Shown here: in pieces, positions 13,701 through 16,700 of the stretch
How the letters are laid out: each line of letters starts with the position of its first letter
How positions within the stretch are numbered: position 1 is the stretch's first letter
Assembly (NCBI GenBank): GCA_030265395.1
Contig: JARFYF010000056.1
Coordinates: forward strand, 17,134,107 to 17,198,106
DNA length: 64,000 nucleotides
Reading direction: 5' to 3'
From: Rhina ancylostomus
Taxonomy: Eukaryota
Program-made: the position numbers

Positions 13701-16700
13701 TTTCCTGAGAGGAAGCGAAAATGCTTTGGAAATAGCTTATTCATTTTATGGTATTCCTAAAATTCATAGTATGAATTTATTTCTGGAATCTAATTTTTTT
13801 TTAATGGGGTGAAGTTCAGGGTGAAATTCAAAATAGTTTATTGAGAGAAGATAGGGCTCAAAATAAGGCTAATTGTTAGTCCATGGTAATTGACATCAAA
13901 ACAGTTTGAGAACTGTTTTATTATTATTTCCAATTAACAGATGTCAGGGAGATTCTAGCAACAGTTGTGGAACGTGATGGGTCATAATTTGTTTTTCTAA
14001 CTGAGGTTTGACTACATCCAGAAGACTTACTAGTGAATGCAAATCTAAGTGTAATGTGAAAATAGAAGCAATTTTACATATTACCTTAAATTAGAGACGG
14101 CTGAGTGTTACTGGAAATAGAAGTTGTGTTAAATAGGTAAATTTTATTATTTCTATTCTTGGGCCCTTTAATTTACAAAAACTTAACTGAAGTTAACATG
14201 AATTTAATGAGTATATTTTTGTTTCATTGGTTTCACGGAGCAGTTGATACTAATTAGAATGTATTTTATTCAATGTGTCCTCCCCAAAGACTATTTTTAA
14301 CTTGCTTTTTTAAAAATGGTTGTTACAGTATTTACTTTATTCAATTTTTTGATAATTAAACAAATTGTCATTAAATTTTAAGTCTAGACTTATTTTATGG
14401 ATGTAACTGCAATTTTCAAAATGTATTAAGTTAATCAGTCATGTATATTATGAATTTATTTGTTGGCATATAACCGTATAAAACAATGAACCAATGATGC
14501 GTAATTTGTAAAATGGTGATTCATTCTTTAGAATAACAGATTGATGGTCCATTCTGATTTTAAATTTGGTAGATGCTTGAAAGGGAATTCCAAGCTGTTT
14601 AGTTCATGAAGCACAATTTTAAAACAAAAATTCTGCTTGTGCTTTCTGGAGAAATGTCAGTGGTCTCAATGTGTAATCTAAATTTTAATTATCTCAAACA
14701 TACAGGGAGGGGAACATTTGAGTTGGAATGAAAGTTAAAAATTACGCAATGGTGAAAAGTCCAAGCAGTGGTGTGGCAAGGATACCATTCAGATGATGAC
14801 AGTAATTAAAATTGTGCATCATGTTACTGTTAGAATTTTATGATGTTTAAGTATGCAAGCTTAGATAGCAGTTTGTGATTTTTTTTGTTCTCTCTGTTGT
14901 AGAATAATTGTTTTCTGTATTAGAATTTGACACAGATATAACTCCTTGCTCACTTATAAATAGCATACTGATTTTACTGTTAGACAATATGTGGGCGGGA
15001 AGGGAAATAAAAATATTTCATANNNNNNNNNNNNNNNNNNNNNNNNNNNNNNNNNNNNNNNNNNNNNNNNNNNNNNNNNNNNNNNNNNNNNNNNNNNNNN
15101 NNNNNNNNNNNNNNNNNNNNNNNNNNNNNNNNNNNNNNNNNNNNNNNNNNNNNNNNNNAATTTTGCAGTGCAGGTGTTTTATATACTGCGCCACTGGAAA
15201 ATTGCACAAAACAAGGTCAGGGTGGGGTTAGTTATTGTTTTAGTAGTTGTGTTGGGATGTAATTTGAATATTCTAATTTAAGTTTATAAAAGTGCACAAC
15301 TGCAGTTAATTCAAATAAACATAATATTTTTAAAAAGTACCTTTGCTAACAATTGTGTTACTGATGGTTTTCATGACAGAAATTAGATCTGAGCAAATCC
15401 TCCATTTCTAATACAAATAAGGATTGTGGAACTAATCTGTTTGCCTAAGCACAAATGACAAGTTTCCCAAAACTGAGGAGGCCTTAATAAAAAATAAATT
15501 TAGACTTTTGATTTCAGTGATGGAGTGCAGAGAAACAAATTACAAAATTGGCTTTGTAAGGTGCACTTTAATAACAATATAATAATAAGAATTTTATAGT
15601 GAAATATCTGATTTTTATACGGAATTCATTTTGTGTGAATTGTTTTGTAATTATTTAGTAAATATTCTGTTTATCAAACAGCACCAATCATCATGTCTTC
15701 ATTCCGTAAAACCAAACTACAGGTATTGTGTATGTGTGGAATACAGTGTGATTGCCTATATTAACTGATGTGTATTGCGGTAACATGACTAGAAGGTCAA
15801 TATATTGGGTGATGCATGTAGCATGCTTTTACAGACACATTTTACATGCGATGTAACTGATTTCAGAAGTGATTTGAAAGTCACATTTGCATCCTTATTT
15901 GCTCTGAGAACTCTTCTTCTAACTGCCTTTCTTCAATTAATTACTGTTTACAGCAGAAATTCTCAATTGAAATATGGCAGCTGACTACGTTTGTTTTTGC
16001 AAGGACTATGGTGTGGAAACTGACATGTCCCTACCTCAGTATCAAAGTCCTATCTTGATCTTGATGATGTTCTAAAAGGTTATCATTTAATATGTGTTTC
16101 AATTAACTCAACACTCTAAAATAGTAATAGTTAGATTACTTAATTCTCAAAAGGAACCTTTTATATAGAAGCATGGTCTATTTACAAATTTAAACTTAAT
16201 TTCAGATTAACATGGCAGGTATTGGTTACTGATTGATGCAGCTTTTAAAATGCACACATTGGCAGGTGTGTTGCTGATAAGATAAAGAAGAATCCAGGAT
16301 TACCAAATGGGGAATTTGCTGTTTACAAAACATTATTCTTCTGCAGTCTGGACACTTTTCAAGAAAACAAAACTAGACTGTAATTGGCATGTACTGACAT
16401 CATTCAATAATGTTTCTCTAAGGTTATTATAGATAGAATTATAAATAGAATTCTGTGTAGGATTAATCTTTTAAACTTGGTTGCCTTTTCGTAAACCAAA
16501 GCTTGTACAGAATACTTTCTGTACGTGCAAACAATTCAGTTGAAACTTTGTAATTTATTTCAGCCCCCTGGGGCAGTCTGATGCCCAGCTGGCTTGTAGA
16601 TAAATTGATTAGTTTTAGTTTATCAACCCACGTTTATCCTTGGTCTTCATATTGAACAGGAGTTTAAAATTTACTAATTTTTTTAAAAGCTAGGGTATGA

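What the first reader, a model, noticed from the sequence alone, without database searches (positions are those of the whole stretch)
15682..15830. Hidden intron-1 exon adds a basic N-terminal extension MSSFRKTKLQK to alpha-II spectrin
Seen: a 41-nt segment flanked by cag| and CAG|gtattg, with an ATG at 15693 (A at -3). Its 10 codons end in phase 0 and join AAA-ATG of exon 2a to give MSSFRKTKLQK-MDSTGVK. Downstream lie a UG-rich tract, TGCATG (15813-15818) and GCATG (15821). Known: RBFOX sites downstream of an exon promote inclusion in neurons and muscle, and the alpha-spectrin N-terminus is the tetramerisation site. Inference: a tissue-regulated exon switches the start codon and adds an 11-aa basic peptide beside the tetramerisation helix. 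Some vertebrate SPTAN1 annotations may already list a short N-terminal extension, so novelty needs checking.
Basis: partly seen in the sequence, partly recalled or inferred. Interest (0 to 1): 0.7.

Follow-up and report, generated by a model that had tools for sequence, protein, structure and literature searches.

The report
Unproven mini-exon in spectrin intron 1
A 41-base stretch in the first intron of a fish-like alpha-II spectrin gene looks like a small exon that would lengthen the protein's start, but such look-alikes arise by chance about as often as seen here, and whether it is ever used could not be tested.

Summary
A 41-nt segment (15682-15722) is flanked by cag| and |gtattg. It has an ATG at 15693 (A at -3, T at +4) and 10 open codons ending in phase 0. 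Exon 2 starts AAA-ATG at 21679. TGCATG lies at 15813 and GCATG at 15821. The gene is a non-human vertebrate alpha-II spectrin.

The splice sites are of median quality for this gene. They are not distinctive:
- 16 pairs in the gene's introns score as well or better.
- 111 of 300 dinucleotide shuffles of intron 1 give at least one equally good exon with an in-frame open ATG.
- Control DNA predicts about 0.35 such exons per intron.

The one unusual element is two GCATG within 110 nt downstream of the donor, which only 0.9% of gene positions have.

No transcript, proteomic or vertebrate comparative data could be reached, so use and conservation stay untested. Literature searches found no N-terminal alternative exon of alpha-spectrin.

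Most likely it is a chance pseudoexon (about 0.72). A real RBFOX-type N-terminal cassette exon remains possible (about 0.18).

The parts
15661..15681 (+). Putative 3' splice site region (pyrimidine-poor tract, ...atcaaacag)
   Evidence: 7.0 bits on a PWM trained on 23 real acceptors of this window, above 11 of 23 real sites scored leave-one-out; 10 of 16 pyrimidines at -20..-5; 6 of 23 real sites have 10 or fewer; 678 of 2660 intronic AGs have 10 or more; best of the 10 AGs in 15500-15722.
15682..15722 (+). Candidate 41-nt cassette exon; ATG at 15693; 10 codons MSSFRKTKLQ ending in phase 0
   Evidence: sequence and translation. A15 C13 G3 T10, GC 0.39 against 0.32 in 300-nt flanks on each side. 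No transcript evidence was available.
15723..15755 (+). Putative 5' splice site gtattg followed by a G/T-rich stretch
   Evidence: donor CAGGTATTG scores 7.8 bits, above 14 of 23 real donors; 6 of 9 matches to the consensus, as in 14 of 23 real donors and in 172 of 2665 intronic GTs (6 or more); best of the 18 GTs in 15690-15900 (next is 15795 at 7.1); 24 of 33 bases are G or T.
15813..15825 (+). TGCATG (15813-15818) and GCATG (15821-15825), 91-103 nt downstream of the putative donor
   Evidence: 0.9% of gene positions have at least 2 GCATG in the next 110 nt; 6.3% have a TGCATG within 110 nt and 16.1% within 300 nt.
21679..21755 (+). Exon 2 with the canonical start codon (ATG 21682), preceded by one codon AAA
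   Evidence: 18 of 24 residues identical to brain alpha-spectrin chain 3f31_A residues 3-26, E 7.6e-07.
12747..12903 (+). Presumed non-coding exon 1 (ends not established)
   Evidence: sequence; the frame that would run into the candidate exon is open from 12747 and holds no Met before 12903; donor 12903 scores 3.1 bits, and the alternatives 12890 and 12742 score 6.7 and 5.4.

Best explanation
The segment is most likely an intronic pseudoexon. It is a chance pairing of an average 3' splice-site-like AG and an average 5' splice-site-like GT in the AT-rich first intron of alpha-II spectrin. Between them happens to lie an ATG in the one phase that reads into exon 2. Exon 2 carries only a single codon (AAA) ahead of its own ATG. 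So any upstream exon with an open ATG ending in phase 0 would 'extend' the protein, which makes this coincidence cheap. On this reading the segment is not spliced into mRNA at a meaningful level, and the protein starts at 21682.
For: -: 72 of 2739 intronic AGs and 34 of 2747 intronic GTs score at least as high as the candidate's. They form 16 pairs of 6-250 nt in the gene, 4 of them in intron 1.
- two of the 16 pairs share the donor of a true exon (55323-55421), one is the candidate, and 13 are decoys without spectrin-like coding.
- in 300 dinucleotide shuffles of intron 1, the mean number of equal-or-better pairs with an in-frame open ATG is 0.51. 37% of shuffles have at least one.
- real control DNA (antisense of the gene, plus both strands upstream; 76.3 kb) holds 12 pairs, 3 of them ATG-open. 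That is about 0.35 expected per 8.8-kb intron.
- the acceptor is in the lower third of real sites for pyrimidine content.
- no paper found describes an N-terminal alternative exon of alpha-spectrin.
Against: - Both sites are the best in their neighbourhood and of median strength for real exons of this gene. The verified 60-nt alternative exon of the same gene has a weaker donor, 3.8 bits.
- Two GCATG lie within 110 nt downstream. That holds for 0.9% of positions and for 0 of the 13 decoy pairs.
- The exon is more GC- and C-rich than its flanks.
- Unannotated, cell-type-specific cassette exons are known in mouse Sptan1 (PMC6952364, passages read).
Confidence: 0.72

Rival explanations
1. It is a real, tissue-regulated cassette exon. 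RBFOX proteins, possibly together with GU-binding partners, bind the downstream UGCAUG/GCAUG pair and promote inclusion in neurons or muscle. Translation then starts at 15693 and adds an 11-residue basic tail (net charge +4) ahead of the tetramerisation helix. The N-terminus changes from Met-Asp to Met-Ser.
For: - The frame is open and A is at -3.
- The splice sites are the best locally and of median strength.
- The GCATG pair is rare by position.
- TGCATG is enriched on the sense strand, 34 against 14 (composition alone predicts a ratio of about 1.4).
- GU-rich elements often accompany bound GCAUG (PMC11874969, passages read).
- Erythroid alpha-spectrin chains carry 9 more N-terminal residues than alpha-II (8iah_8 residues 10-32 align to query residues 1-23). 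Longer tails are therefore tolerated in this family.
Against: - The splice-site and ATG features are at chance level.
- T at +4 is suboptimal, whereas the canonical ATG has A at -3 and G at +4.
- The GU-rich stretch lies about 60-90 nt from the GCATG pair, not within the 10 nt reported for bound sites.
- There is no transcript, conservation or literature support.
- The motif was noticed post hoc, among many possible regulator motifs.
Confidence: 0.18
2. The exon is spliced in at a low level, as harmless noise or as a 5'-leader variant. The extension has no selected function. The in-frame ATG is tolerated because it neither truncates nor shifts the protein.
For: An in-frame open ATG makes inclusion neutral with respect to nonsense-mediated decay. 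About 22% of chance pairs in shuffles have such an ATG (0.51 of 2.28).
Against: The same lack of transcript data applies. With these tools it cannot be told apart from the other readings.
Confidence: 0.08
3. It is an exonised fragment of a transposable element or another repeated sequence.
For: The introns hold LINE-like reading frames on the minus strand (for example 47950-48510 and 36504-36903).
Against: Self-BLAST of 15159-16600 against the whole window gave only the self-hit. Rfam gave no match in the window. Genome-wide copy number could not be checked.
Confidence: 0.02

Closest known systems
The 60-nt (20-residue) alternative cassette exon after the SH3 domain of SPTAN1
   Same: It is a short in-frame cassette exon of the same gene. 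It is present in this window at 51959-52018. It also has a TGCATG nearby, and its regulated inclusion is documented (PMC3411717, passages read).
   Different: That exon is internal, its peptide is recognisable by similarity, and it is documented in mammals. Its TGCATG lies about 29 nt upstream of the acceptor, not downstream. The candidate sits in the 5' leader and has no known counterpart.
Unannotated hair-cell-specific cassette exon of mouse Sptan1 (ASCOT study)
   Same: It shows that cell-type-restricted exons missing from annotation exist in this gene (PMC6952364 and PMC10018040, passages read).
   Different: Its position in the gene is not given in the text I could read. The coordinates are in a figure and in supplements, which were closed. 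No link to intron 1 is shown.
Erythroid alpha-I spectrin N-terminus
   Same: It is a natural alpha-spectrin with a tail 9 residues longer ahead of the same helix (alignment offsets).
   Different: In mouse, exons 2-4 of Spta1 were exchanged for those of Sptan1 to give an alpha-II N-terminus (PMC8456306, passages read). This suggests the alpha-I extension is not on a separate upstream exon. From recall, it starts with the short pattern M-x-x-F-x-K, which the candidate also fits. That pattern fits 13 of 2594 ATGs in the window by chance.
Intronic pseudoexons (decoy splice-site pairs)
   Same: The density and quality of the sites equal those of 13 other decoy pairs in the same gene and of shuffled and antisense DNA.
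   Different: Unlike those 13 decoys, it has two GCATG within 110 nt downstream.

Membership tests
Alpha-II (non-erythroid) spectrin gene, 5' half | The first coding exons match the N-terminal partial repeat of brain alpha-spectrin | tested here: met
   exon 2 against 3f31_A, E 7.6e-07, 18 of 24 identical; exon 3 against 3f31_A, E 1e-24. The exons were searched one by one.
Alpha-II (non-erythroid) spectrin gene, 5' half | Spectrin repeats and an SH3 domain downstream | tested here: met
   PF00435 in 2 of 2 repeat exons tested; SH3_1 (PF00018) above its cut-off in exon 48755-48889.
RBFOX-activated cassette exon | (U)GCAUG within about 300 nt downstream of the exon | tested here: met
   TGCATG at +91 and GCATG at +99 from the donor.
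RBFOX-activated cassette exon | Functional splice sites flanking the exon | tested here: inconclusive
   median PWM scores and the best sites locally, but 72 AGs and 34 GTs in the introns score as well.
RBFOX-activated cassette exon | Exon and motif conserved in related species | not testable with these tools
RBFOX-activated cassette exon | Tissue-specific, RBFOX-dependent inclusion | not testable with these tools
   No RNA-seq or CLIP data.
N-terminal proteoform from an upstream coding exon | An ATG in frame with the main start, with no intervening stop | tested here: met
   phase 0, and exon 2 starts AAA ATG; there is no in-frame Met in 12747-12903.
N-terminal proteoform from an upstream coding exon | Favourable initiation context | tested here: inconclusive
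   A at -3 but T at +4. The canonical ATG has both A at -3 and G at +4.
N-terminal proteoform from an upstream coding exon | mRNA or peptide evidence | not testable with these tools
   No transcript or proteomic data; the peptide string is in 0 papers.
Neural microexon (SRRM4 class) | Length 3-27 nt | tested here: not met
   The exon is 41 nt long. The definition comes from the abstracts listed (PMC7935315).
Intronic pseudoexon | Site quality and frequency no better than in control sequence | tested here: met
   37% of shuffles; 3 ATG-open pairs in 76.3 kb of control DNA.
Intronic pseudoexon | Not included in mature mRNA | not testable with these tools
   No RNA-seq.

The most novel reading that the evidence does not exclude
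A real, RBFOX-dependent 41-nt exon in intron 1 of alpha-II spectrin moves the start codon upstream. It gives neurons or muscle a spectrin with an 11-residue basic Met-Ser N-terminus next to the tetramerisation helix. It could even be a remnant of the longer N-terminal tail seen in erythroid alpha-spectrin. From recall, that tail starts M-x-x-F-x-K, a short pattern the candidate shares.
Probability: 0.07. Interest if true: 0.55.

Novelty: not a real feature. Interest (0 to 1): 0.2.

Why it matters
The alpha-spectrin N-terminal tail folds with the beta-spectrin C-terminus to make tetramers (PMC9082959 abstract in the listing; PMC8456306 passages). A regulated change of that tail would be a new way to tune the membrane skeleton in excitable cells. 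It would also alter how SPTAN1 start-region variants are read.

If it is a decoy, as is more likely, the case is a useful caution. Because exon 2 carries only one codon before its ATG, any phase-0 pseudoexon with an ATG will look like an 'N-terminal extension'.

Tried and rejected
- Rfam scan of the whole window gave 0 matches, so no known RNA gene explains the region.
- Self-BLAST of 15159-16600 gave only the self-hit, so there is no in-window repeat.
- Relic of a longer ancestral N-terminus: the recalled short pattern M-x-x-F-x-K fits the candidate. It also fits 13 of 2594 ATGs, including 12575, 15455 and 17003 on the same strand. The mouse knock-in design argues against a separate upstream coding exon in alpha-I. 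I kept this only as a lead.
- Alternative acceptor at 15659 (3.0 bits) and alternative donors at 15729-15795 (at most 7.1 bits, all out of phase 0) are weaker than the proposed sites.
- Literature searches turned up no N-terminal alternative exon of alpha-spectrin. I saw listings and abstracts, and read passages of PMC3411717, PMC8456306, PMC12626420, PMC6952364, PMC10018040 and PMC11874969.
- One search failed on a term with an apostrophe and was not repeated.
- Left out on the operators' rule: the spliced product (candidate exon joined to exon 2) was not searched, folded or printed.
- Unchecked because closed or absent: the search for homologous proteins, the search of protein representatives, metagenome and viral contigs, any vertebrate genome or RNA-seq set, and paper supplements. 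The supplements include ASCOT Supplementary Data 1 and the zebrafish microexon tables. These could show where the known Sptan1 alternative exons lie.

Full report
**What the window is.** The window is AT-rich (GC mostly 0.33-0.40). Its plus strand carries the 5' half of an alpha-II spectrin gene.
- Exon 2 (21679-21755) encodes MDSTGVKILDSADDIQERRQQVLDR. It aligns to residues 3-26 of the brain alpha-spectrin chain 3f31_A (18 of 24 identical, E 7.6e-07).
- Exon 3 (22630-22792) aligns to residues 28-81 of the same chain (E 1e-24).
- Later exons give Spectrin-repeat and SH3 Pfam matches.
- I searched the exons one by one. As the operators require, the spliced product of the candidate exon and exon 2 was not searched, folded or printed.
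- I do not take the window for human. The start peptide differs at 6 of 24 positions from the brain chain, the composition is AT-rich, and the introns hold LINE-like frames.
- The nine N runs were left as they are.

**Check of the observation.** All stated letters are in place.
- The acceptor is ...atcaaacag|, and the exon spans 15682-15722 (41 nt).
- The ATG at 15693 has A at -3 and T at +4.
- Ten codons (MSSFRKTKLQ) end in phase 0 before gtattg.
- A G/T-rich stretch follows (24 of 33 bases).
- TGCATG lies at 15813-15818 and GCATG at 15821-15825.
- Exon 2 begins AAA ATG, so the frames fit.
- The frame that would enter from exon 1 is open from 12747 and has no Met. The ATG at 15693 would therefore be the first in-frame start.
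- Two corrections. Exon 2 ends at 21755. The exon 1 donor at 12903 is only a guess: it scores 3.1 bits when held out, against 6.7 for 12890.

**How good are the splice sites?** I mapped 22 exons by reading frame and phase. I trained position weight matrices on 23 acceptors and 23 donors of this window.
- The candidate acceptor scores 7.0 bits, above 11 of 23 real sites scored leave-one-out. The donor scores 7.8 bits, above 14 of 23.
- Simple counts agree. The donor matches 6 of 9 consensus positions, as do 14 of 23 real donors. The acceptor has 10 of 16 pyrimidines, which puts it in the lower third of real sites.
- Both are the best sites in their neighbourhood: of 10 AGs in 15500-15722 and of 18 GTs in 15690-15900.
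- As a positive control, the same thresholds picked up a true exon I had not used for training (55323-55421).
- The verified 60-nt alternative exon (51959-52018) has an acceptor of 8.0 bits and a donor of only 3.8 bits.
- So the candidate's sites are usable in principle.

**Is it more than chance?** No, for the splice sites and the ATG.
- In the introns, 72 of 2739 AGs and 34 of 2747 GTs score at least as high. They form 16 pairs of 6-250 nt, 4 of them in intron 1. Of the 16, 13 are decoys with no spectrin-like coding.
- In 300 dinucleotide-preserving shuffles of intron 1, the mean was 2.28 such pairs, 0.51 of them with an in-frame open ATG. 37% of shuffles had at least one.
- Real control DNA gave 12 pairs, 3 of them ATG-open, in 76.3 kb. 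The control was the antisense strand of the gene plus both strands upstream. That is about 0.35 expected per intron of this size.
- The coincidence is cheap because exon 2 has a single codon before its ATG.

**The downstream motifs.** GCATG occurs 65 times and TGCATG 34 times on the sense strand, against 41 and 14 on the antisense strand.
- Of positions in the gene, 0.9% have at least two GCATG in the next 110 nt. 6.3% have a TGCATG within 110 nt, and 16.1% within 300 nt.
- None of the 13 decoy pairs has two GCATG within 110 nt. One of the 13 has one.
- Multiplying by the chance rate of the exon gives roughly 0.005 (strict) to 0.08 (the usual 300-nt window). The motif was picked after the fact from many possible regulator motifs.
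- Bound GCAUG elements tend to have GU-rich elements within 10 nt (PMC11874969, passages). Here GGGTGAT abuts the TGCATG, but the longer G/T-rich stretch at the donor lies some 60-90 nt away.
- Seven GCATG fall in 15814-17230, so the pair may belong to a wider local excess.

**Other checks.**
- Rfam gave no match.
- No copy of 15159-16600 occurs elsewhere in the window.
- Erythroid alpha-spectrin chains align to exon 2 from their residue 10 or 11. Alpha-spectrins with a tail 9 residues longer therefore exist.
- From recall, that tail starts with the short pattern M-x-x-F-x-K, which the candidate fits. The pattern fits 13 of 2594 ATGs in the window, three others on the same strand between 12.5 and 17 kb.
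- The mouse knock-in that swapped exons 2-4 of Spta1 for those of Sptan1 produced an alpha-II N-terminus (PMC8456306, passages). This speaks against a separate upstream coding exon in alpha-I.

**Literature.** Searches found no N-terminal alternative exon of alpha-spectrin, and the peptide string is in 0 papers.
- Known SPTAN1 events found were the 20-residue insert after SH3 (PMC3411717), a zebrafish microexon (PMC12626420), and an unannotated hair-cell-specific exon in mouse (PMC6952364 and PMC10018040).
- The position of the hair-cell exon is given only in a figure and in supplements that I could not open.

**Verdict.**
- Chance pseudoexon: about 0.72.
- Real regulated N-terminal cassette exon: about 0.18.
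- Low-level neutral inclusion: about 0.08.
- Repeat-derived: about 0.02.
- Shown: the sequence anatomy, the gene identity, the site scores and the chance rates.
- Inferred: everything about splicing, RBFOX control, translation from 15693 and any effect on tetramerisation.
- Junction reads and cross-species alignment of intron 1 would decide it. Neither could be run here.

Noticed in passing
window 51925-52024: This is the 60-nt cassette exon for the roughly 20-residue insert after the SH3 domain (51959-52018...KEVGSVVLRMKQVEEL). It has a strong pyrimidine tract and the donor ATT|gtgagt (3.8 bits). A TGCATG lies at 51925-51930, about 29 nt upstream of its acceptor.
   Followed up: partly
window 36205-36215 and 37737-37847: Probable GC-AG intron. 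The exon 36072-36209 ends GAG|gcaagt. The next exon starts directly after an in-frame TAG at 37737, which forces phase 0 and hence the GC donor.
   Followed up: partly
window 39358-39585: This is the strongest decoy pair in the gene (10.9 and 10.9 bits, 228 nt). It has stops in all three frames and four GCATG within 300 nt downstream. It could be a poison exon or just a decoy.
   Followed up: no
window 13322-13455: A 134-nt pair in intron 1 has much better sites (10.9 and 10.8 bits) than the candidate and no in-frame open ATG. If any extra 5' exon exists in intron 1, this is at least as good a candidate.
   Followed up: no
window 12742-12903: The end of exon 1 is uncertain. The donor at 12903 scores 3.1 bits when held out, against 6.7 for 12890 (CGA|gtgaga) and 5.4 for 12742.
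   Followed up: partly
whole window; 15814-17230: TGCATG occurs 34 times on the sense strand and 14 times on the antisense strand. Composition alone predicts a ratio of about 1.4. Seven GCATG are clustered in 1.4 kb just downstream of the candidate, and none lie between 12401 and 15814.
   Followed up: partly
window 47950-48510 (-), 36504-36903 (-): Long minus-strand reading frames in introns look like 3' parts of LINE elements (my reading from recall). They gave no Pfam match.
   Followed up: partly
window 12575, 15455, 17003 (+): Three further ATGs on the sense strand open with M-x-x-F-x-K, two of them with M-x-x-F-P-K. Expected by chance at about 0.5% of ATGs.
   Followed up: no
window 37916-37931: A 16-base N run sits at the start of the exon that encodes ...LEEFATKLIQSDHYAKEDVAARRDA. 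That exon's acceptor therefore cannot be read.
   Followed up: no
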